A stretch of 64,000 nt of DNA, from the NCBI RefSeq assembly GCF_963921235.1, contig NC_086097.1, forward strand, positions 59,336,001-59,400,000. The letters are read 5' to 3'. Position numbers and translations under genes: made by a program. Position 1 is the stretch's first letter. Each line of letters opens with the position of its first letter. Below the pieces are notes generated by a model. The model was not told where the DNA came from. It made no database searches and saw nothing but the letters and a program-made list of their open reading frames with translations. Source of the DNA: Mobula hypostoma (taxonomy: Eukaryota). Shown here in pieces: positions 640 through 54,833 of the stretch.

Positions 640-1447
640 GGTTCAAAGGTTCAAAGATCCAATTTAATGTCAGAGGAATGTATACGATATACATCCTGAA
701 ATACTTTTTCTTAGCAACCATCCACGAAAACAGAGGAGTGCCCCAAAGAACAAATGACAGTTAAACGTGAGAACCCCAAAATCCCCCCCAGCTCTCCCCT
801 CCCTCGCATAAGCGGCAACAAGCAATGATCCCCCCCCCAGCAAAAAAAAACGCTTGCTACTGAGCACAAGTGTGAGCTAGGCAATAGCAAAGACACAGAC
901 CTTGCAGTTACCCCAAGACAATTGCATTTCATCCGGCATTCTATAAACCACAGGTTCTCTCTCTCGCTAATAAGGGAGAGGGATGTGTCCCTATTTTTAC
1001 AGCGTGTGGGAGACATAACAACAACCCGCTGGCTTACGATGTTAAGAAGTCCATTTCATTGCTTTTTTCGAGCTCTGTGCCTGAAGATCTCAAAGAGCTC
1101 GGGTCTTTGGGCCTTCCTGATGACACATGGATCTCCTACCGTGACATTGACCCATGATCCGCCCATCTCCAGAGCCCCGAGGTCTTAGGCTTTCGAACAC
1201 GAGCCAGACTCTCAGGCCAAACCCTTGGCATGCCGAACAACAACGGCCCGTCTTGAAACCCCAAAAACAGGTTCCATCCCGGCAAAGAACTGAAGTCTGC
1301 GTGTAACTCCAGGTCAGGGTCTTCAAAAGAACCCTGAAAGGGAAAAATAAAGATATTAAAGATGGACGTAGATCTGTTTCCGAAGATGCAAGTAAAGGCG
1401 TCACTGTTTAGCGCCATGCAAGCAAAGGAGTCGCCATTTAGCATCTC
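640..1447 (-). mobile_element. Non-autonomous ORF-less retroelement (~800 bp) with LINE-type 3' tail
   Basis: 1270-1400 is the reverse complement of 63780-63915. The 3' end (TTTCAGGATGTATA...ATTAAATTGGATCTTTGAACCTTTGAACC on minus) matches 45100-45190. No meaningful ORF. Confidence 0.7.
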
Positions 1448-3230: not shown

Positions 3231-4318
3231 ACGCACACACACACACAAGTCTGCGTTCTCAGAGTTTTTTGATATCCAAGGCTTGTCTCATTGCACAATT
3301 ACACCAGATTCTACAGAACACGGCAGCATTTATAAGTATGCTCAGATTCTTTGTTTGTTCCTAAAGTAGCATGCTGCATTAGAGTGAAAGCTAGCAAGAG
3401 CTTTATTGCAGAATTATAGCCTCTTGAGATTTTTATGTGATTGTTAAATGTGTTGCAGTCTTTCTGAGTTCTAAAAGATTGCATCAGTTTTGAGGACTAA
3501 ATAGATTTTATTTCAAAACTATCTTAAATTAAATCTGTACCTTTTTAACTAACTTCTTCCTTTCTAAAAAAAGTTTGCAATAGCATCCTTTTATATAAAA
3601 AAATCAATTTAACTGCATCCTCACACAAAAAAAAATGCAGTCAATTGCGGTATTACTCTAGTACAGTCATCTTCCTTGATTTGATTCCATGAAGCCACTG
3701 CAAAGATGTGGCATAAAAGCTGAGGCTTTGTGATTTCTAAAATCTAATTTTAGATAGACCTGTCCCACACACATAACAAAAGGTCAGAATGGATGTTCAT
3801 TTCTTCAGTGTGTTCCAGCTGGTGTATAGGCAGAATATAGCTGCAGATGCAAGGTGTTGCTGAGCTCTATTAAAACATGTAGCCATGGAAAAAAAGAAAT
3901 TCAGAAAATGTTGAAGAATTCAGTAAATGTATTTCGCTCTTACAATTTGGATTTCCAGCATCCATTGTTCCTGTTTTGTTTTGTAATATGAAGTAATGAT
4001 TCTATTTCCCACACTTGACCTTCTTTTGGTTCTGCTTATTTCTGTTGCCCTTTCTCAAGTTGCACTCATTTTTATCATTTAAGCTTTCCTGCCTACCTTC
4101 AATCACACACATTCCTTTTTAACTCTTCTCTACTTTCATATTTGTTGCATATTGCTATTTGTTTTATCATTAAAGTTTCCCAGTTCTGGCAAAAGGCCAT
4201 TAAGAAGAAGCCTTAGCTCTATTTCCCAGTTCTGGTGAAAGACCATTAACGAAAAGCAACATACATCAAAGTTGCTGGTGAATGCAGCAGGCCAAGCATC
4301 ATCTATAGGAAGAGGCGC

Positions 4319-4354
4319 AGTCGACGTTTCAGGCCGAGACCCTTCGTCAGGACT
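4319..4354 (-). ncRNA. Minimal type I hammerhead ribozyme
   Basis: Minus strand reads AGTC-CTGACGA-AGGGTCTCGGCCT-GAAAC-GTC-GACT: helix I, CUGANGA core, helix II, GAAA, GUC cleavage triplet. Confidence 0.85.
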
Positions 4355-4677
4355 AACTGAAGGAAGAGTGAGTAAGGGATTTGAAAGCTGGAGGGGGAGG
4401 GGGAGATGCAAAATGATAGGAGAAGACAGGAGGGAGAGGGATGGAGCCGAGAGCTGGACAGGAGATAGGCAAAAGGGGATACGAGAGGATCATAGGACAG
4501 GAGGTCCGGGAAGAAAGACAGGGGAGGGGGGGTGATCCGGGAAGAAAGACAAGGGGGGGGGTCCTATCACCTGTCCAGCTCTCGGTTCTATCCCTCCCCC
4601 TCCTGTCTTCTCCTATCATTTTGCATCTCCCCCTCCCCCTCCAGCTTTCAAATCCCTTACTCACTCTTCCTTCAGTT

Positions 4678-4713
4678 AGTCCTGACGAAGGGTCTCGGCC
4701 TGAAACGTCGACT
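4678..4713 (+). ncRNA. Minimal type I hammerhead ribozyme
   Basis: AGTC-CTGACGA-AGGGTCTCGGCCT-GAAAC-GTC-GACT; predicted cleavage after 4709. Confidence 0.85.
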
Positions 4714-5615
4714 GCGCCTCTTCCTATAGATGCTGCTTGGCCTGCTGTGTTCACCAGCAACTTTGATGTATGTTGCTTGAATTTCCAGCATCTGCAGAAT
4801 TCCTGTTGTTTGCATTAACGAAAAGCCTTAGCTTTATGTTTTTCCTTACATATATTTCCTGACTTCTCAATATTATCAGCATTTTGCTTTCTTCCCTCCA
4901 GATTTTTCACATAAGGAGTTTGTTTTTAAGCTGTTTTGGGATATTTCACTGTACGTGATTTCAGAATTTTGAAAGGATAGTGATATTCAAGAAAAGGTAA
5001 GTAGCAACCTTTTTGTTATATCATCACAATTACTGATGTGATTATACTCATAAGCAGCTTGGTTCTAATCTGTCACTACACATCATAGTAATAAGCTATG
5101 ATTTATGAAAAGTAATTCGTTGAGGATCTCTGACTGAGAATGAATATCTCACCCAAGAAAATTGAATAAATGTGCTTCTTAATGTCTCACTGAAATGCCA
5201 GTGAGGAAATAGAATTTCAGTCTGCTTGTAATATTGATTGTTATATTTGCATGCCTTGGCAATGATGGAAGATTACCCATGCAGTTTAAAGGCCAGAGAT
5301 GCCAATCATTTTGTTTCCAGTAGTCTGAGTAAGCAATCTCTTCAAATTGTGAAAACCTCAATCAAAAAGCCTGAGAGGAGAGCAATTGCTTTCCTCCTCT
5401 CTTTATTATCACCGTCTTAAATAGTGCAGTAGGGTACACAGCCAGATGGTAGTTTTCCAGTTTCACAAGGCTGTCTAAATCGCTGGTTAAACTTTGTCTG
5501 CATGACTGAATGTGTAGATAGCAGTCTATAAGATTTGCCACTTTTCTCAGTAACAATTCTGACAATTTATTGTGCAATGCTTGGCTGATGAAAATATTCC
5601 TATACTAAAAAATCT

Positions 5616-8216
5616 ATAGACAATAGACAATAGGTGCAGGAGTAGGGCACTCGGCCCTTCGAGCCAGCACCACCATTCACTGTGATCATAGCTGATCATC
5701 CACAATCAGTACCCTGTTCCTGCCTTCTCCCCATATCCCTTGACTCCGCTATCATTAAGAGCTCTATCTACCTCTTTCTTGAAAGCATCCAGAGAATTGG
5801 CCTTCACTGCCTTCTGACATAGAGCATTCCACAGATCCACAACTCTCTGGGTGAAAAAGTTTTTCCTCAACTCCGTTCTAAATGGCCTACCCCTTATTCT
5901 CAAACTGTGGCCTCTGGTTCTAGACTCCTCTCCAACATCGGGAACATGTTTCCTGCCTCTAGCGCGTCCAATCCCTTAATAATCTTATATGTTTCAATCA
6001 GATCCCCTCTCATCCTTCTAAATTCCAGTGTATACAAGCCCAGTCGCTCCAATCTTTCAACATATGACAGTCCCGCCATCCTGGGAATTAACCTCGTGAA
6101 CCTCTGCTGCACTCCCTCAATAGCAAGAATGTCCTTCCTTAAATTTGGAGACCAAAACTGTACACAATGCACCAGGTGTGGCCTCACCAGGGCCCTGTAC
6201 AACTGCAGAAGGACCTCTTTGCTCCTATACTCAACTCCCCTTGTTATGAAGGCCAACATGCCATTAGCTTTCTTCACTGCCTGCTGTACCTGCATGCTTA
6301 CTTTCAGTGACTGATGAACAAGGACACCAAGTTCTCATTGTACTTCCCCTTTTCCTAACTTGACACCATTCAAATAGTAATCTGCCTTCCTGTTCTTGCC
6401 ACCAAAGTGGATAACCTCACATTTATCCACATTAAACTGCATCTGCCATGTATTTGCCCACTCACTCAACCTGTCCAAGTCACCCTGCATTATCTCAACA
6501 TCCTCCACACATTTCACACTGCCACCCAGCTTTGTGTCATCTGCAAATTTGCTAATGTTACTTTTAGTCCCTTCATCTAAATCATTAATGCATGTTGTAA
6601 ATAGCTGCGGTTCCAGCACCGACCCTTGCGGTACCCCACTGGTCACCACCTGCCATTATGAAAGGGACCCGTTGATCCCTACTCTTTGTTTCCTGTCTGC
6701 CAACCAATTTTCTATCCATGTCAGTACCCTACCCCCAATACCATGTGCTCTAATTTTGCCCACTAATCTCCTGTGTGAGACCTTATCAAAGGCTTTCTGA
6801 AAGTCCAGGTACACTACATCCACTGGCTCTCCCTTGTCCATTTTCATAGTTACATCCTCAAACAATTCCAGAAGATTAGTCAAGCATGATTTCCCCGTCA
6901 TAAATCCATGCTGACTCGGACCGATCCTGTTACTGCTATACGAATGTGCCGCTGTTTCATCCTTTATAATTGACTCCAGCATCTTCCCCACAACTGATGT
7001 CAGGCTAACTGGTCTATAATTCCCTGTTTTCTCTCTCCCTCCTTTCTAATAAAGTGGGATAACATTAGCTACTCTCCAGTCCTCAGGAACTGATCCTGAA
7101 TCTAGAGAACATTGGAAAAATAATTACCAATGCATCCACGATTTCTAGAGCCACCTCCTTAAGTACCCTGGGGTGCAGACCATCAGGCCCTGGGGATTTA
7201 TCAGCCTTCAGTCCCATCAGTCTATCCAACTCCATTTTCTCTCTAATGTGAATCTCCTTCATTTCCTCTGTTACCACTGGGTCCTCCAGCCACTGTTACA
7301 TCTGGGAGATTGTTTGTGTCTTCCCTAGTGAAGACAGATCCAAAGTACTGTTCAACTTGTCTGCCATTTCCTTGTTCCCCATTATAAATTCACCTGTTTC
7401 TGTCTTCAAGGTCCCAACTTTGGTCTTAACTAATTTTTTCCTCTTCACATACCTAAAGAAGCTTTTACTATCCTCCTTTATATTCTTGGCTAGCTTGCTT
7501 TTGTATCTAATCTTTTCTCCCTGTATTGCCTTTTTAGTTATCCTCTGTTGCTCTTTAAAAGTTGCCCAATCCTCTGGCTTCCCGCTCATCTTTGCTATGT
7601 TACACTTCTTCTCTTTTATTTTTATACTGTCCTTGACTTCCCTTGTCAGCCACGGTCACCCCTTACTCCCCTTAGAATCTTTCTTTCTCTTTGAAATGAA
7701 CTGATCCTGCACCTTCTTTATTATTCCCAGAAATACCTGCCATTGTTATTCCACTGTCATCCCTGCTGGGGTATCTTTCCAGTCAACTTTGGCCAGCTCC
7801 TTCCTCATGGCTCCATAGTCCCCTTTGTTCGACTGCAAAACTGACACTTCCGATTTTCTCTTCTCCCTCTCAGATTGTGGTTTAAAACTTATCATTTTAT
7901 GGTCACTACCTCCTAATGGCTCCTTTACCTCGAGTTCCCTTATCAAATCTGGTTCATTACACAACACTAAATCCAGAATTGCCTTCTCCCTGGTAGGTTC
8001 CAGTACAAGCTGCTCTAAGAATCCATCTCGGAGGCACTCCACAAACTCCCTTTCTTGGGGTCCAGTACCAACCTGATTTTCTCAGTCTACCTCCATGTTA
8101 AAATCCCCCATAACAACCATAGCATTACCTTTGTGACATGCCAATTTTAACTCTTGATTCAACTTGCACCCTATATCCAGGCTACTGTCTGGGGGCCTGT
8201 AGATATCTCCCACTAG
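5616..8216 (-). mobile_element. 5'-truncated CR1 LINE with frameshifted ORF2 (partial EN + RT)
   Basis: ORF fragments IYRPP..MGDFN, KSPGPDGLHPRVLKE, YLDFQKAFDKV, GVPQGSVL, FADDTK; (TATTGTC)n tail at 5616-5632. Confidence 0.95.
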
Positions 8217-8772: not shown

Positions 8773-10339
8773 CACACCAATCAAGTAGCATTCTATCACA
8801 TCTCTCTCTTTGTGATTCTAAACCCAATTGTTTCCTTTATTCCTCATGCTAGCCTTTCTATCATTTCTAAGAAGAAGGGAGTATTTCGTGTAGGCCATGT
8901 ACAATAACAAATAGGTTACTAGCTTAGCTCTGTGTCATGTTTCCCATAATCCTGCATTCTACTATTTGGGCTTTAACATGAGATTTTTTTTGTCCAATTT
9001 ACTCAAACAAAATTGGACAAAAAATAATATCTTAGGTTAAAGCTCAAAGAGTTGTGCAATTTCCTGTTGCATTCATATTGTTTTTCCTGAACTTCTTTGT
9101 TTCATCTATTTGCCTCATGTTTTTAATTGTCTTTATCAAGTTTTGCTTATCATTATCCATCTTTACCTGGAATTGTATGAGGAACAAGGGAAATCAGAGT
9201 GCTTATGTTTGTAAGTCCAGGATGAGGATGAGCATGGGGATAAATATCATGAAGGTGTGATAGTGTGAGGCTGATGTTGTTTCTAACTTAGAGTGGGCAT
9301 TTAATAGTTTTAGTGTTCAGGTTCTCATGGTGGCGAATTAGGTTTCGAGATCTGATATTAACAGCTGTGATGGGGATTTAGGATTTAGACGAACTTTGGA
9401 CAGAATAAGCCTTGTTTCATTGGTGAAAACTTCTTGAAAAGGAACAATTATTTCAGAGTCAGGGATCTACTGTGAGCTATAAAGATGCTCTGAGCATGGA
9501 AAATGAGTTTCTTCTGAACTTTGTGTTTTTTTGTATTTGAAGAAAATGATTATTGGTCTGATTATTTTTGTGGATATAGCCAAGTTATTGTAATATTCCA
9601 AGTAAGGATGACACAACATTTTGGAATATGGGCTAAGTGTATTGTGCAATTTCAGAAGTTTGCATCAACCATGGTGTTACCTCTCTTTACTTGACCTTAC
9701 TTCCGGTTACATCATCATTGTAGCTTTGAATGTAGAGTGTTTCCATCATATGCCATTACTTTCCATAATAATTTGAAACAATAAATATTACCTTCTTAAT
9801 TAGATGAATATCTCTAACAGCATGAACGCATTAATTTCACTCTTGCACCTTTCAATGTGGATCTGACAGTTTTCATTGCTTTCATAAATTATACATTGTA
9901 TTGTTCATTTTTTCTCTTTCCTTTGTGCATGAAGAATTCTTATTTTCAGTTGCAACACATCCATTCCACAAACCTTCATCATTAGCATTGTACAGGAATT
10001 CAACTCTGTTTGCTAAAGTGGCACTTATAAATAACACAACTGCTTTACAACGTGGCTGAAAAAACTCCTCAGAGCATTGTCAACTAATAACGACATAAAC
10101 TAAAGAGTAGAAGCACCAAAGAAAGGCAAACAATAGCAATTACTTATTTATTTCCAAAGATATGTCTTTTCTGCAGATAAGAAAATTAAGTTAAGAACAG
10201 AACACTTTTCAAAATCATTTGAATACATTATTTCCTGTGCAGAGTAATTTTCTTTGGCAAAGCAAAAATGGAGAAGAAAACTTAATTTAAATGCATTATA
10301 CTATATCTTGCCAACAGGTTCATAAAGCGGGGGGGGGGG

Positions 10340-17170: not shown

Positions 17171-17600
17171 TGTTGCAAGGAGCGAAGGAAGCAAACCCAA
17201 GTGCAGGACATGGGCACGGAGATTGAGTTTGGATGCTTACATGGGCACAAATGCCGAACAGCAGACAGGAGGGATTTTCGACGGAGCCCTGATATGGAGC
17301 CTTGACACGGAGCCTTGACTCAGAGAAACAGAGTCTCATAGGTAAACCTTGAAACTGGAGCTAAACTTAGAACAAATGGTTCTAAGAGGTCGGGAAACCT
17401 AGTTATCTCACAGGAAAAAAACAACAATCTGGCAACTAATGGTTGTAACCCTAGGGTTCTTATGCTGCAGGTCTTGATCGAAACCAGGTGTGCCATCATC
17501 AAAGAGAATTAGCAGTAAATGGCAAATTAATGATTGGAATCAAGGCATAACCAAAGGAAATTAGGAGCAAGATAGAGAATTAACGATCTGGACCATGACA
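17171..17600 (-). repeat. 3' LTR (430 bp)
   Basis: Minus strand TGTCATGG...GCAACA; direct repeat of 24908-25375. Confidence 0.92.
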
Positions 17601-17619: not shown

Positions 17620-20408
17620 GGCAGCCTCCTGGCGATCCACCAGGCTTGTCTGGATTGTCCCGATGGAAATCACGGATGAGGGAAGGGTCCAGAATGAAGA
17701 AGCGGGGAATCCAGAAACGTTCCTTTGGGCCATATCTCTCTCAATCGACCAGGTATTGGAGGCCCCTGCCTTGGCGGCGCACATCCAGTAGTCGCTGGAC
17801 GGTATACGCTGGGTGGTCGTCAATGATCCAGGTGGGTGGAGGGGGTTTGGCAGGAGGGCACAAAGGGCTGACAGATACCAGTTTCAATTGGGAAACATGG
17901 AATGTAGGATGGATATGCATAGATTTGGGCAGTTTGAGTCTGACTGCTGAGGGGTTGATAATACTCTTAATCTCGAATGGTCCCAGGTAGCGAGTCGTTC
18001 GTTTCTTGGGCACATTCTTGAGGGGAATGTCTTTAGAAGAGAGCCAAATCTTCTGCCCAGGCCGATAATCAGGTGCAGGAATTCTATGACGATTGGCAAT
18101 CTTCTGGTTGCGGTTGGTGAGTCTTTCCAGATCTTGCGGCACCGGTGGAGCTGGGCCTGAACAGAAGGTGCAGCGACGTCATCTTCATGAGCGGAGAACA
18201 GAGGGGATTGGTAACTGAGAGAGCATTCAAAGGGAGACATTTCTGTGGTGGTGCTGACCAGGGCGTTGTGGGCGAACTCTACCCAAGCGAGACGGGTGCT
18301 CCAGGAAGACGGGTTGTTGGCGGTTATGCAGCGCAATGCTGCTTTCAAGTCCTGGTTAGCTCATTCTCTTTGACCATTCGTCTGCAGAAGAAAGTCGGAC
18401 GACAGACTTACTGAGGCTCCAAGGGCTTGACAAAAAGATCTCCAGACTTGAGAGACGAATTGGGAACCCTGAAATAATGTCAGAGGGAATCCCGTGAAGG
18501 CGGAAGACATGGTGGATGAGAAAGTTGGCTGTTTCACGAGCTATAGGGAGTTTGGGAAGGGCTACGAAGTGCACAGCTTTGGAGAAGCGGTCCACCACGG
18601 TGAGTACGGCAGTGTTCCCATGTGAAGGGCGTAGTCCAGTAACAAAATCCAGCGCAATGTGAGACCAAGTGCGGCTAGGGACAGGTAGGGGACGAAGCAA
18701 TCCAGCAGGTGGTTGGTGGGAAGCTTTTCCGCAGACACAAACAGAGTAGGCAGAGATGAAGGAACAGGTGTCAGCTTCCATGGAGGACCACCACAAATGT
18801 CTCTTCAGAAGGGACAGAGTCCGATCGATGCTGGGATGGCAGGCAAAACGAGACGTGTGCCCCCACTGGAGAACCTGAGACCGAACAGAATCAGGCACAA
18901 AGAGGCGATTGGAGGGTCTGTTGCCTGGGTCAGGTTGAGTCCATTGGCCCTCTTTGACTATGGCCTCGATCTCCCAGGTGAGGGCAGCCACTACACAGGA
19001 TGGTGGCAGGATGGTCTTGGCGTTGGGAAGGCCCTTCTCAGAAATATATTGAGGGGAGAGAGCATCAGGCTTCCCGTTCTTGGACCCTGGACGATAGGTG
19101 AGTGTAAATCCGAACCGGCCAAAAAATAATGCCCAACAAGCTTGGTGGGAATTCAGGCGTTTGGCGGTTTGGATGTATGCAAGGTTCTTGTGATCGGTCC
19201 AGACGATAAACGGATGCTCTGCTCCCTCCAGCCAGTGCCTCCACTCCTCCAAAGCAAGTTTGACTGCCAGTAACTCCCGGTTCCCTACGTCGTAATTTCG
19301 TTCAGCGGGGGACAGCCAGCAAGAAAAGAAGGCACAGGGATGAAGTTTTTGGTCAGGGCTTGAACATTGGGAGAGGACCGCTCCCACCCCAGAGTCGGAG
19401 GCATCAATCTCCACAATGAATTGACAAGAGGGGTCTGGTTGAACAAGGATGGGAGTGGAGGTGAAATGCCTCTTCAGCTCCAAGAAGGCAGCGTCCACTT
19501 CGGGGTCCCAGTGAAAAGGGGTCTCAGGAGAGGTGAGTCGAGTAAGGGGCGTTGCCAACCGGCTGTAATCTCTGATGAAATGACGATAAAAGTTTGCGAA
19601 CCCCAGAAATCGCTGGAGTTGCTTGAATGTTGTGGGATTTGGTCACTCCACCACCACCCGGATCTTTTCGGATCCGCCCTCACTTGCCCGCCCTCGATGA
19701 TGTATCCTAAGAAACTGACAGAAGGAACGTGAAACTCGCACTTCTCAGCTTTCACAAATAGTTTGCTCTCCCAAAGCAGCTGAAGAACCTGACCGACATG
19801 GTGGGTGTGTTCCTGAAGACTGCTGGAGAAGATTAGGATGTCATCCAAATAAACAAACACGAAGCAGTTAATAAAATCACTAAGGACATAATTTATCAGA
19901 ACTTGAAAAACAGCGAGGCCATTGGTGAGACTGAATGGCATGACCAGGTATTCTAAGTGACCAAGAGGGGTGTTAAATGTTGTTTTCCACTCTTCTCCCT
20001 TCCTTATCTTGACCAGATGATAGGTACTTCGTAGGTCCAACTTGGAGAAGATGGTGGCTCCGTGAAGTGGTTCGAAAGCAGAGTTGAGAAGGGGTAGTGG
20101 ATATTTGTTCTTTACGGTTAGTCAATGCAGGGGCACAGTGAACCGTCTTTCTTCCCCACGAAGAAGAAATCTGCGCCGACTGGCGATAATGAGGGTCAGA
20201 TAATGCCCACCGCGAGAGATTCATTTAAGTAAGCTCCATTGCTTCCCTTTCTGGCCGGGACAAGTTATACAAGCCGACTGGTGGGTTTAGGGGCTCCAGG
20301 GAGAAGGTCAATAGCACAATCATAAGGGCGGTGTGGAGGCAGGGAAAGAGCCCGTTGTTTGCTGAACACTTCTCCCAGATCGTGGTACTCAGCTAGAACC
20401 TTGGATAA
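17620..20408 (-). pseudogene. Gypsy pol remnant (RT-RNase H-integrase-chromodomain)
   Basis: ORFs 19474-20040, 18356-19558, 17884-18348 and 17741-18142, separated by frameshifts. Confidence 0.92.
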
Positions 20409-24907: not shown

Positions 24908-25375
24908 CGTGACAATAGAGGAGGCAAACCCAATGGCAGGACACAGGCATGTAGATTGAGGTTGGATGCTTACACAGACGCCAACGCCGAACAGCAAACA
25001 GGACGGATCTTGACACGGAGCCTTGATATGGAGCCTTGGCACGAAGCCTTTACTCAGAGACTGGACATGGCGCCTTGACAAGGAGCCTTGACTCAGAGAA
25101 ATGTAGTCTCATAGGTAAACCTTGAAACTGGAGCTAAATTTAGAAGAAATGGTTCTAAGCGGTCGGGAAACGTAGTTATCTCACAGGAAAGAAAAACAAC
25201 TATCTGGCGACTAATGGTTGTAACCCCAGGCTTCTTATGCTGCAGGTCTTGATGGAAACCAGGTGTGCTGTCATCAAAGAGAATTAGCAGTAAATAGGAA
25301 ATTAATAGTTGGAATCAAGGCATAATCAAAGAAAATTAGGAGCAAGATAGTGAATTAACAACCGGGACCATGACA
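24908..25375 (-). repeat. 5' LTR (~468 bp)
   Basis: Direct repeat of 17171-17600 with extra GGAGCCTTGACAC-like units. Confidence 0.9.
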
Positions 25376-35048: not shown

Positions 35049-35453
35049 ATTGTTCAAATAAATAATGACAAATTGTTTTATTCACTATTAAAACACTTAT
35101 AGAAGACACTTATTATAAAACTAGCCGAGAAGTTAATCTCAGCCAGTTGTGCCAATAAGTGTTCTATAATGGAGGGAGTGTTTTGTCTTCAGCAACACAA
35201 CAATTTGAACGCAGTGTACTTCTTTTGCAGCATAACATTTCTCATGTTAAAGGATGGGGATAATCTCTTGTCATCAATCTTGATTTTGAAAATTCTAATT
35301 GGTCTATTTATTATTTAACCCAATTATTTAAATAAATCCCCTTTGTAACTTTATGCACAACTTTTTGTCGTTCCTACTTGAAGTTTTCTGCAAATTTGGA
35401 TCTATAAGTAGCTTTTCATTTTAACTATAGATATACTGAATATTACGAGAATA

Positions 35454-37087
35454 CAGTGTCCATAAAAAGTATTCACCCCTCCTCCCCCACCTTGGAAGTT
35501 TTCATGTTTTATTGTTTCACAACATTTAATCACAGTGGATTTAATTTGGCTTTTTTGACACGGATCAACAGAAAAAGACTCTTTTGTATCAAAGTGAGAA
35601 CAGATCTCTACAAAGTGATCTAAATTAATTACAAAAATAAAACAAAATATAATTGATCGCATAAATATTCACCCCTTGCTTTAATATGACACACCAAATT
35701 GTCACTGGTGCAGCCAATTGGTTGTAGAAGTCACATAATTCATTAAATGGAGATCACGAGTGTACTGTTCAGGTGTTTCAATTGATTGTAGTAAAAATAC
35801 ACCTGTATCTGGAAGGTCCAGCTGCTGGTGAGTCAGTATCCTGACAAAACCTACACTATGAAGACAAAAGAACACACCAAGAAACTCCATATAAAGGATA
35901 TTTACAAGTGCAAGTCAAGAGATGGATACAAAAAAAAAATTCCAAGTCGCTGAATATCCCCGGAGAATAGTTAAGTCAAACATCAAGAAATGGAATGAAT
36001 ATGGCACAGCTATATATCTGCCTAGAGCAGGCCGTCCTCAAAAACTGAGTGACCATGCAAGAAGGGGACTAGTGAGGGGGGCCCAAGACACCTATGACAA
36101 CTCTAGAAGAGTTACAAACTTGAGTGTCTGAGATGGGACAGACTATGCATACAACAACTGTTGCCCGGGTGCTTCACCAGTCGCAGCTTTATGGGAGTGT
36201 GGCAAAGCGAAAGCCACTGTTGATAAAAACTCACATGAAATCTTGGCTAGAGCTTGCTAGAAGGCATGTAGGAGACTCTGAAGTCAGCTGCAAGAAGGTT
36301 GTATGGTCTGATGAAACTAAAATTGAGTTTTTTGACCATCAAACCAAACACTGTGTTGAGCACATCATCAAAAACACACCACCCCTACCATGAAGCATGG
36401 TGGTGACTGTATCATGCTGTGGGGATGTTTCACTGCAGCAGGCCCTGGAAGGTATGTGGAGGTAGAGAGTGAAATGAATGCAGCAAAATACAGGGAAATC
36501 CTGGACGAAAACCTGATGCAGTCTGCAAGAGAACTGCAACTTAGGAGAAGATTTGTTTTCCAGCAAGACCATGACTCTAAGCATAAAGCCAATGCTGCAT
36601 AGGAATGGCTTAAAAACAACAAAACTAATGGCCTGGAGTAGCCAAGTCAGAGTCCAGACTTCAATCCAATTGGACATTTATTGCTGGACTTGAGAAGGGC
36701 TGTTCACTCACAATCTCCATGCAATCTGACAGAGCTTGAACAGTTTTGTAAACAAAAATGGGGAAAAACTGCAGTGTCCAGATGTGCAGAGCTGACAGAG
36801 ACCTATCCACATAGACTCAAGGCTGTAATTGCTGCCAAAGGTGCATCTACTAAATACTGACTTGAAGGGGGTGAGTAATTATGCAATCAATTTTTTTGTA
36901 TTTAACAACTGAAATAAATTTAGACCAATTTGTAGAAATTTGTTTTCACTCTGACACAAGAGAGACTTTTCCATCGAACGGTGTCAAAAAAGCCACGTTA
37001 AATCTACTGTGATTCAATATTGTAAAACAATAAAACATGAAGATTTCCGGGGGGGGGGAGGGGGTTGAATACTTTCTCTAGGCACTG
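35454..37087 (+). mobile_element. Tc1-family DNA transposon, IR/DR type (1634 bp)
   Basis: TA|CAGTG...CACTG|TA; ~225-bp TIRs, each with an outer and inner TATTCACCCC direct repeat. Confidence 0.95.
35858..36860 (+). pseudogene. Tc1 DD34E transposase, frameshifted
   Basis: MKTKEH, GRPQKLS, VWSDETKIE, KHGG..MLWGCF, FQQDHDSKH, SQSPDFNPI, TKY*. Confidence 0.93.
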
Positions 37088-37369
37088 TATATCTGTAGCG
37101 AACAGCTTTTGTTACACCTTGCCAATCAGACTCTATCTTACGTCTCTAAATCATTTACAAACCCATATTATGAATTTACCTTCAATCTTATTCACTATCA
37201 ATATTGGTATAATTTATTAAGAAGCAAGTTACAAATTGCATTCTGAATGTCCATGTGGACAATCCCCATGAATTTCATATCTGCATTCTGTATGCATCTC
37301 ATCTATAACATTCTGAAAATGATCTAACCCTTTAAAAATCCATGCCTACTCTCTTAGATTATCTCATTA

Positions 37370-40305
37370 TTACAACATAATTGTATAAGGGCTAAGAGAG
37401 CTGTAAAAGAGCGCCTGAAGGCTTTGTGTGTCAATGCAAGGAGCATTTGTAACAAGGTGGATGAATTGAAAGTGCTGATTGTTATTAATGATTATGATAT
37501 AGTTGGGATCACAGAGACATGGCTCCAGGGTGACCAAGGATTGGAGCTCAACGTTCAGGGATATTCAATATTCAGGAGGGATAGACTTGAAAGAAAAGGA
37601 GGTGGGGTGGCGTTGCTGGTTAAAGAAGAGATTAACGCAATAGAAAGGAAGGACATAAGCCGGGAAGATGTGGAATCGATATGGGTAGAGCTGCGTAACA
37701 CTAAGGGGCAGAAAACACTGGTGGGAGTTGTGTACAGGCCACCTAACAGTAGTAGTGAGGTCGGAGATGGTATTAAACAGGAAATTAGAAATGTGTGCAA
37801 TAAAGGAACAGCAGTTATAATGGGTGACTTCAATCTACATGTAGATTGGGTGAAACAAATTGGTAAAGGTGCTGAGGAAGAGGATTTCTTGGAATGTATG
37901 CGGGATGGTTTTTTGAACCAACATGTCGAGGAACCAACTAGCGAGCAGGCTATTCTAGACTGGGTTTTGAGCAATGAGGAAGGGTTAATTAGCAATCTTG
38001 TCATGAGAGGCCCCTTGGGTAAGAGTGACCATAATATGGTGGAATTCTTCATTAAGATGGAGAGTGACACAGTTAATTCAGAAACAAAGGTTCTGAACTT
38101 AAAGAGGGGTAACTTTGAAGGTATGAGACGTGACTTAGCTAAGATAGACTGGAAATGACACTTAAAGGATTGACGGTGGATATGCAATGGCAAGCATTTA
38201 AGGATTGCATGGATGAACTACAACAATTGTTCATCCCAGTTTGGCAAAAGAATAAATCAAGGAAGGTAGTGCACCCGTGGCTGACAAGAGAAATTAGGGA
38301 TAGTATCAATTCCGAAGAAGAAGCATACAAATTAGCCAGAAAAAGTGGCTCACCTGAAGACTGGGAGAAATTCAGAGTTCAGCAGAGGAGGGCAAAGGGC
38401 TTAATTAGGAAGGAGAAAAAAGACTATGAGAGAAAACTGGCAGGGAACATAAAAACTGACTGTAAAAGCTTTTATAGATATGTAAAAAGGAAAAGACTGG
38501 TAAAGACAAATGTAGGTCCCCTACAGACAGAAACAGGTGAATTGATTATGGGGAGCAAGGACATGGCAGACCAATTGAATAATTACTTTGGTTCTGTCTT
38601 CACTAAGGACAACATAAATAATCTTCCAGAAATAGTAGGGGACAGAGAGTCCAGTGAGATGGAGGAACTGAGCGAAATACATGTTAATAGGGAAGTGGTG
38701 TTAGGTAAATTGAAGGGATTAAAGGCAGATAAATCCCCAGGGCCAGATGGTCTGCATCCCAGAGTGCTTAAGGCAGTAGCCCAAGAAATAGTGGATGCAT
38801 TAGTGATAATTTTTCAAAACTCGTTAGATTCTGGACTAGTTCCTGAGGATTGGAGGGTGGCTAATGTAACCCCTCTTTTTAAAAAAGGAGGGAGAGAGAA
38901 ACCAGGAACTATAGACCGGTTAGCCTAACGTCGGTGGTGGGGAAACTGCTGGAGTCAGTTATCAAAGATGTGATAACAGCACATTTGGAAAGCGGTGAAA
39001 TCTTCGGACAAAGTCAGCATGGATTTGTGAAAGGAAAATCATGTCTGACGAATCTCATAGAATTTTTTGAGGATGTAACTAGTAGAGTGGATAGGGGAGA
39101 ACCAGTGGATGTGGTATATTTGGATTTTCAAAAGGCTTTTGATAAGGTCCCACACAGGAGATTAGTGTGCAAACTTAAAGCACACGGTATTGCGGGTAAG
39201 ATATTGATGTGGATAGAGAATTGGTTAGCAGACAGGAAGCAAAGAGTGGGAATAAACGGGACCTTTTCAGAACGGCAGGCGGTGACTAGTGGGGTACCGC
39301 CAGGCTCAGTGCTGGGACCCCAGTTGTTTGCAATATATATTAATGACTTGGATGAGGGAATTAAACGCGGTATCTCCAAGTTTGCGGATGACACGAAGCT
39401 GGGCGGCAGTGTTAGCTGTGAGGAGGATGCTAAAAGGATGCAGGGTGACTTGGATAGGTTGGGTGAGTGGGCAAATTCATGGCAGATGCAATTTAATGTG
39501 GATAAATGTGAAGTTATCCACTTTGGTGGCAAAAATAGGAAAACAGATTATTATCTGAATGGTGGCCGATTAGGAAAAGGGGAGGTGCAACGAGACCTCG
39601 GTGTCATTATACACCAGTCATTGAAAGTGGGCATGCAGGTACAGCAGGCGGTGAAAAAGGCGAACGGTATGCTGGCATTTATAGCGAGAGGATTCGAGTA
39701 CAGGAGCAGGGAGGTACTACTGCAGTTGTACAAGGCCTTGGTGAGACCACACCTGGAGTATTGTGTGCAGTTTTGGTCCCCTAATCTGAGGAAAGACATC
39801 TTTGCCATAGAGGGAGTACAAAGAAGGTTCACCAGATTGATTCCTGGGATGGCAGGTCTTTCATATGAAGAAAGACTGGATGAACTGGGCTTGTACTCGT
39901 TGGAATTTAGAAGATTGAGGGGGGATCTGATTGAAACATATAAGATCCTAAAGGGATTGGACAGGCTAGATGCGGGAAGATTGTTCCCGATGTTGGGGAG
40001 GTCTAGAACGAGGGGTCACAGTTTGAGGATAGAGGGGAAGCCTTTTAGGACCGAGGTTAGGAAAAACTTCTTCACACAGAGAGTGGTGAATCTGTGGAAT
40101 TCTCTGCCACAGCAAACTGTTGAGGCCAGTTCATTAGCTATGTTTAAAAGGAAGTTAGATATGGCCCTTGTGGCTACAGGGGTCAGGGGGTATGGAGGGA
40201 AGGCTGGGTTCTGAGTTGGACGATCAGCCATGATCATAATAAATGGCGGTGCAGGCTCGAAGGGCCGAATGGCCTACTCCTGCACCTATTTTCTATGTTT
40301 CTATA
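37370..40305 (+). mobile_element. Young CR1 with complete ORF2 (two frameshifts), truncated just upstream of ORF2
   Basis: ORFs 37424-38158 (EN), 38155-38928 and 38934-40214 (RT); 10-bp TSD TATCTCATTA at 37360-37369 and 40306-40315. Confidence 0.96.
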
Positions 40306-42261
40306 TATCTCATTACTCTTCTATTTCCCAGGCACTCTGTCCTCAATGACAGGTTCCTATAACTCACCACGAGTTTTCAATAATAACATCAAAATGAATG
40401 TGAAACTAACATGTCTATTTCCAATTACTCCTGTCTTTCCTTCTTTTTTAAATAATGGAGTGACATTTGTAATTTGCTAATCATCATTTTAAAAGCTCCA
40501 GATAATTATGATAAATGCATCTGCACATCTCTCATTTTGTTTAATATTCTGTGGTGGTAACCATCAGGACTGAGAAATTTGTTCGTTTTAAGCACATTTT
40601 ATCATTTTATTTATCAGCTTACCGCTTTTTTGTCATTGCTAAATCAAGTAACTTCTTTTGGTTAATCTGTTGACTCATTAGCTTTCACTTGAAACCATTT
40701 GGTACCATTGATAGCTTGCTATGACTTTATAGTGCTATAATCTCTCTTGACCTCTTCACCATATCAGATTATCACACAGCTTCCCGGATATTCAGTGCTG
40801 GAAAAGCAGCTAAATGCCTTGAGTACCGAAGCTGTTGTCCACCTTAAGTGTTTGTTCTTTGGTGTCTAATGTTGATCTGCACTGTTCCAAATGTTGGTGT
40901 TGTGTTTGACTGAGGAGTGCTTCTAGTCACAAATCCAAACCAACAGCCTAGCCTACATTCTTCCCTGTGCATCACTTGAATAAATGCCTGATTCAGGCTC
41001 ACTGTAAGCTTTGATATTTCCAATGCACAGCTGCCCTTTCTTGTTTTCTCTGCAATGACTCTATAATTTCTTCAGCTCTCTGCTGCTGTTGTTTCAATGA
41101 ACACCATGTTTAGCCATCACTCCATCTTTATTGAATAATTCCTAGATAAGTGTAGAAACATAGTTCCTTAGCTGATAGTATTTGAACGTTTGTAAGCTAT
41201 GAGATAAATATTAGTCTGGGTCACCAGGGATAACCTACCTACTTTCTTTCAAAATAGAACCAGAGGATTTGTTTAACATTTATCTGAATATATGATCTGT
41301 TCTTTGCTTTAACAGCACATTCAAAGGATAAGATCTCAAGGAATGCAACCAGTCATCAGCACTCCAATGGAATATTAGCCTACATTTTTGTGCTGAAAAC
41401 TTGCACAGTCAACTGGGTCAAGTGCTCAAGGACTGTGATCTGAGGTTCCCAACTGCTTCAAGATGACATCAGTTGTACTGGTGCCCAAGAAAAGCAAGGT
41501 GAACTGTCTTAATGACTACTGTCCAGTAATGATTACATCCACATAATAAAGTGCTTCGAGAGAGAGGTTGGTTATGGCTGGAATTAACTCCTGACTCAGT
41601 AAGGACCTGGACTCATTCCAATTTGCTTATCCCCACTTTAGGTTTATAGTATATGCTGGCTCTCTGTCCTGCTGTGGAATGCCTGGACAACTGGACTACA
41701 TATGTGAGACAGTTACCCATTGACCACAGTTCGATGGCATGAACTCCTTAAAACTTATCATCAGGCTCCAAGACCTGGGTCTCTGTACATCCCTCTGCAA
41801 TTGGATCCTCTACTTCCTCACTGAGAGACCACAGATTAGAAACCTCATCTCCTCCTTGCTGACCATCCACACAGGTGCATCCAGTGCCATGTGCTTAGCT
41901 CCCTGCTCTACTCTGTCTGTACCTGTGATTTGACTGGTAGTTGGTGACATGGGGGCATACAAGAATGGGATAGGTCAGCTGTTTGAGTAGTGTCATAACA
42001 ACTTTGAATACCAGCAAGAAAATGACTCAGGGTTATATACGGTGACATACATGTACTTTGCTAATGAATTTACTTTGATCTTTGAAATTTGAACAACCTT
42101 GTACTTGATGCCAGCAAAACCAAGGAACTAATCGTAGACTGTAGGAATGGGAATTCAAGTGAGCTAACAACAGTCCTCATTGAAGGGTCTGTAGTGGAAA
42201 GGGTGAGCAACTTCAAGTTCCTGAATGTCAACATCTTGGAGGATCTATCTTTTTCACAAGG

Positions 42262-43018
42262 TGTCTTGCAAATGCTGGAAATCCAGAGCAATACACACAA
42301 AATGCTGGAGGAACTCAACAAGTCAGGCAGCATCTATGGAAATGAAAAAGTACTCAAATTTTCACGTCAAGACACTTCATCAGGACTAGAAAGGAAGGCA
42401 GAAGATGCCAGAATAAGTGTGTTGGGGAAGTGGAATGATGACAAACTAGAATGTGATAGCTGAAGCCAGGGATGTGGGGGAATGGGGAATGAAGTATGAA
42501 GCTTGGAAGTGAAAAGAGGAAAAAACAAAGGGCTGGAGAAAAAAAAAATCTGAAGGGAGAAGAGAGTGGATCATGTGAGAAAGGGGGGAGGAGGGGCACA
42601 AGGCAGATGTGGTAAACACGATGAATTCTGCAGATGCTGGAAATTCAAGCAACACACATCAAAGTTGCTGGTGAAAGAGAAGATTTAAACTTCTTCAGTG
42701 TAGGCATCACGGAGAATCTCTTACTAGCTCTTCCTTCAGTTAGTCCTGACGAAGGGTCTCGGCCCAAAACGTCGACTGTACCTCTTCCTGGAGATGCTGC
42801 CTGGCCTGCTGCATTCACCAGCAACTTTTATGTGTGAGGCAGATGTGGTAGACAGGTAAAGAGGAGAAGTCAGAGCCCAGAGTGGGGAAATGAAGAGGGA
42901 AAGAGAAGGGAAAAATGCAGGGTTAGAGAAGTTGATGCACATGTCATCAGTTTGGAGGTTACCAAGTGAGAATACGAGGTGTTACTCCTCCAACCTGTGA
43001 ATAACTTCATCATGGCAG
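42262..43018 (-). mobile_element. Older Penelope-like element 3' fragment
   Basis: Minus strand encodes RLEE*HLVFSLGNLQTDDMCINFSN (PLE ORF C-terminus), then a pyrimidine-rich UTR and a decayed hammerhead CTGATGA..GAAA at ~42352-42387. Confidence 0.75.
42615..42836. mobile_element. Young fold-back PLE insertion with a hammerhead at 42742-42777 (GAAA>AAAA)
   Basis: 14-bp TSD AGGCAGATGTGGTA at 42601-42614 and 42837-42850; inverted arms at ~42653-42675 and 42813-42836. Confidence 0.85.
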
Positions 43019-45387: not shown

Positions 45388-46556
45388 GTGGTGGATTCAA
45401 TCTCGCTGGCTCTGCACTCAACCTTGATTCATATGGACAACAGTAATAGCTATGCTAGGCTGCTGATTATTGACTACAGCTCAGTGTTCAACACAATAAG
45501 GCCCTCACTTCTAATCAACAAGGTCCAAAACCTGGGCCTGTACAACTGTATCCTTGCCTTCCCCACCAGGAGACCACTGTCTATGTGGTTTAGAAACAAC
45601 ATCTCCTCCTCGTTGACAATCAACACTGACATACTTCAAAGATGTGTGCTTAACCCACTGCTCTACTCTCTCTACGCCCACAATTATCTGGCTAGGCACA
45701 GCTTAAATGCCATCCATTAATTTGCCGATGACACAACTATTCTTGCCAGGATTTCAGATGGTGACTGACAAGGATGTGTACAGGAGCAAGATACATCAAC
45801 TGGTTGAGTGGTGTTGCAACAATAACATTGCATACAATGTCATTAAGACCAAGAAATTGATTATGGACCAGAAAGGGGGAGTTAAAAGAACACACACCAG
45901 TCTGCACTGAGGGATCAGAAGTGGAAAAGGTGAGCATTTTCAATTTCCTTGGTGTCAGAACCTCTGAGGACCAATCTGGGCCCAACATATTGATGCAATT
46001 ATAAAGAAGCTAAGGCAGTGGCTATATTTCATTAGAACTCTGAGGAGAACTGATATGTCAACGAAGACACAAATTTCTACAGATGCATCATGGAGAGCAT
46101 TCTAACTGGTTGTATCACCACCTGGTATGGAGGGGCTAATGCACAGGATTGGAAAATACTACAGGAAGTTGTGAACCCTGCCAGCTCCATCATGGGTACG
46201 TGCCTCGCAGCATCCAAGACACCATCAAATGGCAATGCCTTAAAAAGGCAGCTTCCATCATTAAGAACCCCATCACCCAGGACATGCCCTTTTCTCATTG
46301 CTACCATCAAGGAGGTGGTACAGGAACCTCTAGAGTGTTTCAGGAGCAGCTTCTTCCCCTTTGCCATCAGAGGTTTGAATGAACAATGAACACTATCTCA
46401 GTAGGTTTTTTTCTTCCTCTCTTTGTGCATTACTCATTTGATTTCATTTTCTTTTATATTGTTCTTATTGTAATTTATAGTTTTTATTATTAGATATTGC
46501 ATTGTACAAGTTTCACGGCATATGTCAGCAATATTAAGCCTGATTCTGATTCTGAA
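45388..46556 (+). mobile_element. Rex1-type LINE 3' part, degraded
   Basis: YARLLIIDYSSVFNTI, CVLNPLLYSLY, ESILTGCITTWYG; (TGATTC)n tail. Confidence 0.85.
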
Positions 46557-52268: not shown

Positions 52269-54833
52269 CCTTAGAGCTATCATTTTGAAGTTGGAGAACA
52301 GGTTAGTTTGACCTTGGATTTTCAGAGTATTGAATACTGAAATATTTTTCAATATAAAACAATTAAAAGTAGAAAACTAATGAAGCAGCTATATAGGATC
52401 AACCTCAACCTCCCATAGTGAATGTCTTCCATGATGAGGATGTCTCCAAGTTTACGAAAAGGTCACGAGTTTCATCTGGAAGTGCATTGAGGATGTTGTC
52501 CTCCAGAAATTGGTCAGGGTCTTTCCAAACCAGAAACATGGATCAACAGTTCCATGCAAGCAGCAATTACTGCGTGACACAGAGCTTACGTTGCCGGTAA
52601 TTAGCAGAAGCTCAAGAAATATAGCTACGATCTACACAAAGTCATCAAAGCAGTGAAACAACAATATAGAGACAGGATTCAGACTCAACTTTCAAACAAC
52701 AATGCACTCAGCTTATGGCAGGATCTGCACACCATCTCAGACTTCAAAGCTAAGTGCAGTTCCAACATCGATGCCTCCCTCCCAGACGAGCTAAATCTTT
52801 TTTACGCTCGATTTGATGTCACCAATACTGAGCCCCTGAGGAGACCTGCAGATGATGCAATTGGCAGCTTTATCATCTCTGAGGCCGAAGGACGCAGGTG
52901 TTTCCAATGGGTGGACAGTCACAAGGCCACGAGACCGAATGGCATCCCAGTGCAGCATAACTGGCAAGTGCACTTACAGATATTTTTAATCTCTCCCTCT
53001 CCCAGCGCAGAGCACACCCTTGCTTCAAATTATCCACCATTGTCCCTGTACCTAAAAAGATCATAGAAACATAGAAACACAGAAAATAGGTGCAGGAGTA
53101 GGCCATTCGGCCCTTTGAGCCTGCACTGCCATTCAGTATGATCATGGCTGATCATCCAACTCAGAACCCTGTGCCAGCCTTCTCTCTATACCCGCTGATC
53201 CCTTTAGCTACAAGGGCCATATCTAACTCCCTCTTAAATATAGCCAATGAACTGGCCTCAACTGTTTCCTGTGGCAGAGAATTCCACAGATTCACCATTC
53301 TCTGTGTGAAGAAGTTTTTCCTAATCTCGGTCCTAAAAGGCTTCCCCTTTATCCTCAAACTGTGACCCCTCGTTCTGGACTTCCCCAACATTGGGAACAA
53401 TCTTCCTGCATTTAGCCTGTCCAATCCCTTTAGAATTGTATACATTTCAATCAGATGCCTCCTCAATCTTCTAAATTCCAATGAGTATAAGCCTAGTTGA
53501 TCCAGTCTTTCATCATATGAAAGTCCTGCCATCCCAGGAATCAATTTGGTGAAACTTCTTTGTACTCCCTCTATGGCAAGGATGCCTTTCCTCAGATTAG
53601 GGACCAAAACTGCACACAATACTCTAGGTGTGGTCTCAACAAGGCCTTGTACAACTGCAGTAGAACCTCCCTGCTCCTGTACTCGAATCCTCTTGCTATG
53701 AATGCCAGCATACCATTCGCCTTTTTCACCGCCTGCTGTACCTGCATGCCTACTTTCAATGACTGGTGTATAATGACACCGAGGTCTCGTTGCACCTCCC
53801 CTTTTCCTAATTGGCCACCATTCAGATAATTATCTGTTTTCCTGTTTTTGCCACCAAAGTGGATAACCTCACATTTATCCACCTTAAATTGCATCTGCCA
53901 TGAATTTGCTCACTCACCCAACCTATCCAAGTCACCCTGCATCCTCTTAGCATCCTCCTCACAGCTAACACTGCCACCCAGCTTCGTGTCATCCGCAAAC
54001 TTGGAGATGCTGCATTTAATTCCCTCATCTAAGTCATTAATATATATTGTAAAAAACTGGGGTCCCAGCACTGAGCCTTGCAGTACCCCACTAGTCACCG
54101 CCTGCCATTCTGAAAAGGTCCTGTTTATTCCCAGTCTTTGCTTACTGTCTGCCAACCAATTCTCCATCCACATCAATACCTTACCCCCAATACTGTGTGC
54201 TTTAAGTTTGCACACTAATCTCCTGTGTGGGACCTTGTCAAAAGCCTTTTGAAAATCCAAATACACCACATCCACTGGTTCTCCCCTATCCACTCTACTA
54301 GTTACATCCTCAAAAAATTCTATGAGATTCGTCAGACTTGACTTTACTTCCACAAATCCATGCTGACTTTGTCCGATGATTTCACTGCTTTCCAAATGTG
54401 CTGTTATCACATCTTTGATAACTGACTCCAGCATTTTTCCCACCGTCAATGTTAGGCTAACCGGTCTATATTCCCTGGTTTCTCTCTCCCTCCTTTTTTA
54501 AAAAGTGGGGTTACATTAGCCACCCTCCAATCCTCAGTAACTAGTCCCGAATCTAAAGAGTTTTGAAAAATTATCACTAATGCATCCACTATTTCTTGGG
54601 CTACTTCTGTAAGCACTCTGGGATGCAGACCATCTGGCCCTGGGGATTTATCTGCCTTTAATCCCTTCAATTTACCTAACACCACTTCCCTACTAACATA
54701 TTTTTCCCTCAGTTCCTCCATCTAACTGGACCCTCTGTCCCCTACTATTTCCGGAAGATTATTTATGTCCTCCTTAGTGAAGACAGAACCAAAGTAGTTA
54801 TTCAATTGGTCTACCATGTCCTTGCTCCCATAA

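What the first reader, a model, noticed from the sequence alone, without database searches (positions are those of the whole stretch)
4244..4826. Fold-back Penelope-like insertion with two intact minimal hammerhead ribozymes in opposite orientation
Seen: ~215-bp inverted arms, a 14-bp TSD, and an identical AGTC-CTGACGA-stem-GAAAC-GTC-GACT motif in each arm, so a transcript from either strand contains one ribozyme plus its antisense. Established: Penelope-like elements carry minimal type I hammerheads with a palindromic, near-absent helix III that are thought to cleave as dimers. Inference: in a host intron this unit could either self-cleave or form a long dsRNA hairpin (ADAR or siRNA substrate). 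The plus-strand ribozyme is transcribed after its antisense arm and should be sequestered; the same holds on the minus strand.
Basis: partly seen in the sequence, partly recalled or inferred. Interest (0 to 1): 0.7.

Follow-up and report, generated by a model that had tools for sequence, protein, structure and literature searches.

The report
Ordinary inverted Penelope insertion in ray
This is a recent, protein-less scrap of a very common jumping gene in a ray genome, made of two shortened copies joined head to head, a layout already described for this kind of element, and its two self-cutting RNA motifs are probably silenced passengers.

Summary
The anatomy is real: 216-nt inverted arms (7 mismatches), a 14-bp target duplication and one minimal hammerhead motif per arm. 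Two related organisms hold the empty site, so it is a true, young insertion. It is two 5'-truncated terminal-repeat copies of a high-copy Penelope-like family of Mobula-type rays, joined head to head, with a 34-nt tail on one end only. That layout, and opposite-strand minimal hammerheads 100-700 bp apart, are in print (PMC8557442, PMC3846280, PMC4209133). A second such insertion lies in the same window. Corrections: both ribozymes have G-U in place of the conserved G10.1-C11.1 pair; they lie on opposite strands and cannot dimerise in one transcript; folding predicts at least 0.997 sequestration in the hairpin; no host gene was shown. The protein-coding master element was not recovered. Two side results have some value: each arm holds sequence the other lacks, which points to two separately primed cDNAs, and the antisense arm appears as one recurring 138-nt exon in Mobula gene models.

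The parts
4176..4221 (+). First unit of a 46-bp host tandem duplication; it shows what the target looked like before insertion
   Evidence: 39 of 46 identical to the second unit once the insertion is taken out; organism C has one unit only (record 26)
4244..4257 (+). Target-site duplication, left copy; its last 4 bases also fit the element end (microhomology)
   Evidence: single copy at the empty site in organism B (record 17)
4258..4562 (-). Copy A: 5'-truncated terminal-repeat copy, 305 nt, 3' end outward, no tail
   Evidence: contigs join the spacer to the arm in other copies (joint 4472 to 4563, opposite strands, 10 contigs in X2 and 4 in X5)
4319..4354 (-). Minimal type I hammerhead motif of copy A, predicted cut 4323/4322
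4470..4562 (-). 93-nt loop of the hairpin: upstream element sequence present in copy A only, with a 31-bp tandem repeat
4563..4812 (+). Copy B: 5'-truncated terminal-repeat copy, 250 nt, 3' end outward, with tail
4678..4713 (+). Minimal type I hammerhead motif of copy B: 4-bp stem I, extra base after A9, stem II with G-U at 10.1-11.1, palindromic 4-base helix III, predicted cut 4709/4710
4779..4812 (+). 34-nt tail, on one end only
   Evidence: family 3' ends pile up at 4811-4813 and run into A/T-rich DNA (235, 234 and 207 contigs in X2, table 7)
4665..4802 (-). Antisense of copy B: a 138-nt, stop-free candidate cassette exon with a strong donor; the same stretch is used as an exon in other copies in Mobula gene models, not shown for this copy
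4813..4826 (+). Target-site duplication, right copy

Best explanation
A dead-on-arrival insertion of a high-copy Penelope-like element (PLE) of rays. Shown: 555 bp were added at a 14-bp duplicated target after organism A split from organism B or shortly before; they consist of two truncated terminal-repeat copies, head to head, one with and one without the tail. Inferred: the element's endonuclease cut both strands 14 nt apart, each 3' end primed a cDNA, one from the tail end and one from the start site 34 nt further in, both on RNA of one source copy, and the two short cDNAs were joined at their far ends. The hammerheads came along because they lie 69 and 103 nt inside the two start sites. 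In any read-through transcript the antisense arm is made first, so the ribozyme zips into a duplex as it emerges and does not cut. The locus most likely does nothing.
For: Empty site in organism B (one contig runs 4243 to 4813; 26 differences in 1775 flank bases) and organism C (4197 to 4813). Family size: 88,707, 84,375 and 17,126 contigs laid in three runs, summed depth above a million against about 6 on the unique flanks in X2 (not a copy number, and it includes a LINE at 5568-5800). Same layout in a second window copy with an 18-bp duplication and one-sided tail and head-to-head joints from other copies (14 shown, 843 further joints hidden). Layout in print: inverted 5'-truncated copy and 30-40 bp one-sided tail (PMC8557442); inverted pLTRs, 31-bp tail, 8-10 bp duplications (PMC3846280); opposite-strand min-HHR pairs 100-700 bp apart (PMC4209133); both-strand cutting and extension from two start sites, A/T-rich targets (PMC11167929). 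Each arm holds sequence the other lacks (93 nt; 34 nt), so neither is a snap-back copy of the other. Both arms share states that are a minority in the family (for example 4316/4716, 4388/4644, 4408/4624, table 3). Sequestration at least 0.997 at each of 36 ribozyme positions, both strands. Sister copies decay in the core: G12 to A at 42742-42777, broken helix III palindrome at 63455-63490.
Against: The defining reverse transcriptase plus GIY-YIG gene was not found linked to this family (and collection scans 28, 29, 32, 68). The arms differ by 7 of 216 (3.2%), more than the flanks differ between organisms A and B (1.5%); binomial P 0.04, Fisher P 0.08, and 0.21 without one CpG pair. This could mean an older, once polymorphic insertion or two slightly different templates. 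Organism A's own contigs reach only 20 and 23 bases into the element at the two junctions, short of the tool's 31-base rule for bridging, and no contig spans the whole unit. The two-primer step is my inference; PMC3846280 proposes self-priming on an antisense template instead.
Confidence: 0.87

Rival explanations
1. The fold-back is a working host RNA element: a long duplex edited by ADAR or diced to small RNAs, or one that alters splicing of a nearby exon.
For: A near-perfect 216-bp duplex is certain to form if the DNA is read through. The only strong acceptor-donor pair of a crude window scan lies 75 bp downstream, at 4902-4996. Family copies do lie in transcribed genes, judged by Mobula gene models.
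Against: Absent from two close relatives, so no sign of conservation. The candidate exon has stops in all three frames and 2 listed differences in 95 bases in organism B, like the flanks. No host protein domain found in 150 of 165 unmasked open frames, apart from transposon remnants and two sub-threshold hits.
Confidence: 0.06
2. A non-autonomous DNA transposon (MITE or foldback type) with long terminal inverted repeats that happens to carry a hammerhead-like word.
For: Inverted arms and a target duplication, no coding capacity.
Against: The ends are unequal (34-nt tail on one side); arm lengths differ between window copies (216 against 56 nt); duplications differ in length (14 and 18 bp); single arms occur (63392-63522); joints fall at many places. 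These are marks of truncated reverse transcripts.
Confidence: 0.03
3. PLE insertion as above, but the second arm arose by self-priming or snap-back copying on an antisense template, as proposed in PMC3846280, and not by two primed cDNAs.
For: Arms share minority states, as one template would give. Many other joints fall near the ribozyme's 5' edge, where near-palindromes form (4344-4358 to 4675-4687), which recalls the palindromes at inverted junctions in PMC3846280.
Against: A snap-back copy of either cDNA cannot give both the 93-nt extension of copy A and the 34-nt tail of copy B; the junction at 4562/4563 is not a palindrome. A longer antisense template with two switches could still do it. 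This rival concerns the mechanism only and overlaps the best explanation.
Confidence: 0.25
4. Assembly artefact: a fold-back chimera of one repeat copy.
For: No contig spans the unit.
Against: 7 differences between arms including opposite-strand decay of one CpG, private sequence in each arm, an exact target duplication and clean empty sites in two relatives.
Confidence: 0.02

Closest known systems
Inverted, 5'-truncated insertions of endonuclease-bearing PLEs (Penelope/Poseidon, Neptune, Nematis; PMC8557442 and PMC3846280, passages read)
   Same: Head-to-head inverted terminal-repeat copies, 30-40 bp tail on one end only, short target duplication, hammerhead in the repeat.
   Different: No open reading frame left; duplication 14 bp against 8-10 bp in the rotifer cases read; clade not determined.
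Minimal hammerheads (min-HHR) of metazoan PLEs (PMC4209133, parts 1-2 of 4 read)
   Same: Type I, 4-5 bp helix I, extra base after position 9, palindromic 15.2-16.2 with no loop 3, pairs on opposite strands 100-700 bp apart.
   Different: Helix II is 4 bp, not 7-8 as in the Schistosoma families; G-U at 10.1-11.1; cartilaginous fishes are not named in the parts read or in the 2 supplement files searched (file 1 not searched).
PAc (Poseidon of Anolis carolinensis; PMC11167929, parts 1-2 of 4 read)
   Same: Two reverse-transcription start sites that define the tail, both strands cut and extended, A/T-rich targets, hammerhead a short way inside the start sites.
   Different: PAc is full length and tested; its hammerhead cuts only with the protein and is not needed for insertion in vitro. 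The passages read do not use the result to explain inverted insertions.
Non-LTR retrozymes of animals (bioRxiv 10.64898/2026.07.22.740005, part 1 of 5 and passages read)
   Same: Non-coding, type I hammerhead, derived from PLE terminal repeats, reported in one chondrichthyan.
   Different: Retrozymes are head-to-tail tandems with two ribozymes on one strand; here they are head to head on opposite strands.
Inverted Alu pairs and antisense Alu exons of primates (recalled, no call)
   Same: Intronic inverted repeats form long duplexes; antisense copies supply splice sites.
   Different: Here both arms come from one insertion; editing, dicing and transcription are untested.

Membership tests
Penelope-like elements (endonuclease-bearing) | ORF with telomerase-like reverse transcriptase and GIY-YIG endonuclease | tested here: inconclusive
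   The insertion has no such ORF. No genome is held. Protein and DNA searches did not reach a master copy. A 16-residue stretch beside the sister copy at 63550-63597 looks like a PLE endonuclease end from recall only; no search confirmed it.
Penelope-like elements (endonuclease-bearing) | Terminal repeats in tandem or inverted, 5'-truncated arrangement | tested here: met
Penelope-like elements (endonuclease-bearing) | 30-40 bp tail at one end only | tested here: met
   34 nt at 4779-4812; also one-sided in the copy at 42601-42854; 2 of 2 fold-backs in the window
Penelope-like elements (endonuclease-bearing) | Target duplication at an A/T-rich site, proven by an empty site | tested here: met
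   14 bp; empty sites in organisms B and C; A/T-rich loose ends at 4811-4813
Penelope-like elements (endonuclease-bearing) | Hammerhead motif in the terminal repeat | tested here: met
   related copies stop matching at 4678 and 4714 and their mirrors 4354 and 4318 (table 7)
Minimal type I hammerhead ribozyme | Invariant core letters, stem I, stem II, A15.1-U16.1, H17, palindromic 15.2-16.2 | tested here: met
Minimal type I hammerhead ribozyme | G10.1-C11.1 pair | tested here: not met
   G-U in both arms; C in the copies at 42742 and 63490; hammerhead fold -6.0 against -7.9 kcal/mol. Its effect on rate was not found in the two papers opened.
Minimal type I hammerhead ribozyme | Match to an Rfam hammerhead model | tested here: not met
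   expected for motifs without helix III (inference)
Minimal type I hammerhead ribozyme | Self-cleavage as dimer or with protein | not testable with these tools
   Only contigs were available; table 6 lists no end pile-ups and contigs cannot show ends
Non-LTR retrozyme | Head-to-tail tandem with two or more ribozymes on one strand | tested here: not met
   One ribozyme per strand
MITE or foldback DNA transposon | Equal terminal inverted repeats, fixed unit and duplication length | tested here: not met

The most novel reading that the evidence does not exclude
Fold-backs like this one record a two-primer insertion by a dimeric Penelope enzyme: both ends of one staggered cut prime cDNA from the two start sites on RNA of one source copy. 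The ray family, with very many young copies and empty sites in close relatives, would let this open step of the Penelope cycle be tested by counting. In addition, a young subfamily carries an antisense donor site that turns the antisense ribozyme region into a recurring, frame-keeping 138-nt exon in ray genes, in the manner of Alu exons.
Probability: 0.45. Interest if true: 0.45.

Novelty: new member of a known kind. Interest (0 to 1): 0.22.

Why it matters
The locus itself matters little: it is one of very many such scraps and is absent from two close relatives. Its use is as a clean record of how Penelope elements insert. PMC8557442 calls the origin of their tandem and inverted structures undefined, and PMC11167929 shows both-strand priming only in vitro. 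Here the empty site, the duplication, the one-sided tail and private sequence in each arm can all be read. If the exon seen in Mobula gene models is real, this family is also reshaping ray proteins, which would be a larger host effect than the ribozyme or the hairpin.

Tried and rejected
Whole genome: none held, so no direct copy count or master element. Rfam: no hammerhead hit; the miRNA-like hits are all below gathering score and reflect the long hairpin. Exact DNA scans for relatives: 0 in viral, prokaryote-genome and metagenome collections with a 25-mer; 5 loci with a 20-mer, all chance matches of 20-41 bases in unrelated DNA. Link to a PLE protein: the sense frame found 2 Mobula gene models with the repeat inside; the spacer frame found none of 46 candidates; the antisense frame found 16 host gene models, none with a reverse transcriptase or GIY-YIG domain listed; the 38-residue frame beside the third copy found nothing and could not be run in the word-based search. 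Host gene: Pfam scan of 150 frames (149 of the 165 listed plus one added) gave transposon domains and two sub-threshold hits, Piezo-like at 9036-9257 and a zinc ribbon at 46140-46379. Expression: no RNA holder listed; the one run guessed to be RNA has no cover on the unique flanks except one bin at depth 2; neither is evidence. Editing and RNA ends cannot be read from contigs. Dimer folding: the drawn hammerhead dimer scores -9.5 against -28.3 kcal/mol for the best cofold, but the model ignores core contacts, so I give it little weight. Variant rows: none of the 16 shown in the arms falls in a ribozyme, but 77 rows are hidden and rows are mirrored, so this is weak. No duplication of 8 bp or more was found for the third copy. 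Literature: Penelope + shark + hammerhead ribozyme 1 irrelevant paper; Penelope + Mobula 0; Penelope + elasmobranch 5 listings, not opened; Penelope + twin priming + inverted 2 listings, not opened, off topic by abstract; Penelope-like + dsRNA + hammerhead 2 listings, not opened; Penelope + exonization 3 reviews, not opened. The library lacks most subscription papers and Repbase/Dfam were not available, so the family is probably already catalogued.

Full report
Observation. The inverted arms are at 4254-4469 and 4563-4778, 216 nt, 97% complementary, with 7 mismatches. The 14-mer at 4244-4257 recurs only at 4813-4826. Each arm carries the same 36-nt hammerhead motif, at 4678-4713 on the plus strand and 4319-4354 on the minus strand. 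The bare core pattern is not far above chance (3 matches, 0.95 expected); with stems required only these two and one sister copy remain. Rfam models do not detect the motif.

It is a real and young insertion. I laid contigs of four public runs on 3300-5800. One contig of organism B runs from 4243 straight to 4813, so it has one copy of the 14-mer and no element; its flanks differ at 26 of 1775 bases. One contig of organism C runs from 4197 to 4813, lacking the element and also one unit of a 46-bp host tandem repeat (23 differences in 823). The remaining unit of that repeat matches the rebuilt target at 39 of 46 bases. Organism A's run may be the source of the window; its contigs enter the element by only 20 and 23 bases, and none spans it.

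Anatomy. The 555 inserted bases are two copies of one repeat, head to head, 3' ends outward. Copy A (4258-4562, minus) is 305 nt and includes the 93-nt loop, which other copies carry contiguous with the arm (joint 4472 to 4563). Copy B (4563-4812, plus) is 250 nt and ends in a 34-nt tail that copy A lacks. Family 3' ends pile up at 4811-4813 and run into A/T-rich DNA (table 7). A second insertion in the window, 42601-42854, has an 18-bp duplication (17 of 18 identical), a 56-nt inverted arm with the tail and a tail-less long arm. A third, tail-less copy lies at 63392-63522 and an older relative at 42267-42388. Runs X2, X5 and X9 lay 88,707, 84,375 and 17,126 contigs on the stretch; summed depth in X2 exceeds a million over the arms against about 6 on the flanks. 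The tool warns that this is no copy number; I infer only a very large family. Table 5 shows 14 further head-to-head joints from other copies and hides 843 joints. Protein hits name Mobula hypostoma and M. birostris, so the window is from a devil ray or close relative.

This layout is known. PMC8557442 (passages) describes an inverted 5'-truncated copy and a 30-40 bp tail often on one end only. PMC3846280 (passages) shows inverted terminal repeats with a 31-bp tail and 8-10 bp duplications. PMC4209133 (parts 1-2 of 4) reports minimal hammerheads in PLE repeats, including pairs 100-700 bp apart on opposite strands, no cleavage as monomer and low cleavage as dimer. PMC11167929 (parts 1-2 of 4) shows that a PLE protein cuts and extends both strands at A/T-rich sites, starts reverse transcription at two sites that bound the tail, and needs protein for its hammerhead to cut, which is not required for insertion. 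Membership is strong on structure but lacks the defining gene: I could not link the repeat to a reverse transcriptase with GIY-YIG endonuclease.

Mechanism. Each arm has sequence the other lacks, so neither can be a simple snap-back copy of the other. Both arms share states that are a minority in the family, for example at 4316/4716, 4388/4644 and 4408/4624 (table 3), and the same T at ribozyme position 11.1, so they come from one source copy. The simplest reading, which is inference, is that both ends of a 14-nt staggered cut primed cDNA, one at each start site, and the two short products were joined. PMC3846280 offers self-priming on an antisense template instead; the junction here is not palindromic, but many other joints cluster at a near-palindrome at the ribozyme edge, so both routes may occur. 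One result sits awkwardly: the arms differ by 3.2% and the flanks of A and B by 1.5% (P 0.04 to 0.08; 0.21 without one CpG pair).

The ribozymes. The invariant letters are present, and related subfamilies stop matching just outside the motif: loose ends at 4678 (201, 166, 125 contigs in X2, X5, X9) and 4714 (170, 130, 51 in X5, X9, X17) and at the mirror places. This points to selection in active elements, not in this copy. Both arms have G-U where PMC4209133 lists a highly conserved G10.1-C11.1 pair; I found no rate data for this change. The isolated motif prefers a fold that pairs core bases with the cut site, -10.0 against -6.0 kcal/mol. The two motifs are on opposite strands and cannot meet in one transcript. 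On either strand the antisense arm comes first, the duplex starts 115 nt before the ribozyme appears, and each of 36 positions pairs with the far arm at probability 0.997 or more. Of the two other recognisable window copies, one has lost G12 and one the helix III palindrome, as neutral decay predicts.

Host context. No host gene was shown. A Pfam scan of 150 frames found transposon remnants and two sub-threshold hits. One strong acceptor-donor pair, 4902-4996, begins 75 bases after the insertion but is closed in all frames. Transcription, editing and small RNAs could not be tested.

Side result. The antisense frame of copy B matches 16 Mobula proteins at E 0.01 or better, of 77 candidates. In 14 of 16 the match ends at one point, and 9 of 16 hold the whole 46-residue stretch. 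In the window this stretch is 4802-4665 on the minus strand, 138 nt, stop-free, between an AG in the tail and a strong donor. By my reading 7 of the 9, from 6 genes, have host sequence on both sides; 2 continue into tail residues. The base at 4370 that completes this donor is replaced in about 39%, 48% and 99% of summed depth in X2, X5 and X9, so the donor marks a young subfamily. These are database gene models; I saw no reads for them. One search for Penelope exonisation gave three reviews that I did not open.

Earlier notes of this scan report the same motif and similar fold-backs in this genome; they agree but are unchecked and are not counted as support.

Verdict. Observation confirmed; interpretation partly supported; a new member of a known kind; interest 0.22.

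Noticed in passing
window 4665-4802 (minus) and proteins P0003-P0018: The antisense terminal repeat appears in 16 Mobula gene models; 14 of 16 end at the same donor and 9 of 16 hold the same 46-residue, frame-keeping stretch. Looks like recurrent Alu-style exonisation by a young subfamily; gene models only.
   Followed up: partly
window 42601-42854: Second fold-back insertion of the same family: 18-bp duplication, 56-nt inverted arm with tail, 39-nt unexplained spacer, tail-less long arm whose ribozyme has lost G12.
   Followed up: yes
window 63392-63597: Third copy on the minus strand, no tail, helix III palindrome broken; next to it on the plus strand a 16-residue frame that resembles a PLE endonuclease end from recall; searches found nothing.
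   Followed up: partly
window 42267-42388 (minus): Older, 73% identical relative of the repeat with tail and a decayed ribozyme core, just upstream of the second insertion.
   Followed up: partly
window 4902-4996 (plus): The only strong acceptor-donor pair in a crude scan of the window, with a branch-like word at 4859; stops in all three frames; possibly a non-coding or dead exon.
   Followed up: partly
window 4176-4267 region: 46-bp host tandem duplication present in organisms A and B, single in organism C; the element landed in the second unit.
   Followed up: yes
window 35451-37090: Tc1/mariner-like remnant: about 225-bp inverted ends at 80% identity and a transposase domain at 36124-36390 (PF01498).
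   Followed up: no
window 17741-20121 (minus), with direct repeats 17186-17600 and 24919-25375: Decayed LTR retrotransposon-like reading frames, apparently interrupted by a LINE; large CR1-like LINE copies in opposite orientation at 37370-40310 and 53065-58104, 93-94% identical. Family names are recalled from the translations.
   Followed up: no
window 1213-1417 and 63769-63970: Two copies of an unidentified 200-bp repeat, 79% identical, in opposite orientation.
   Followed up: no
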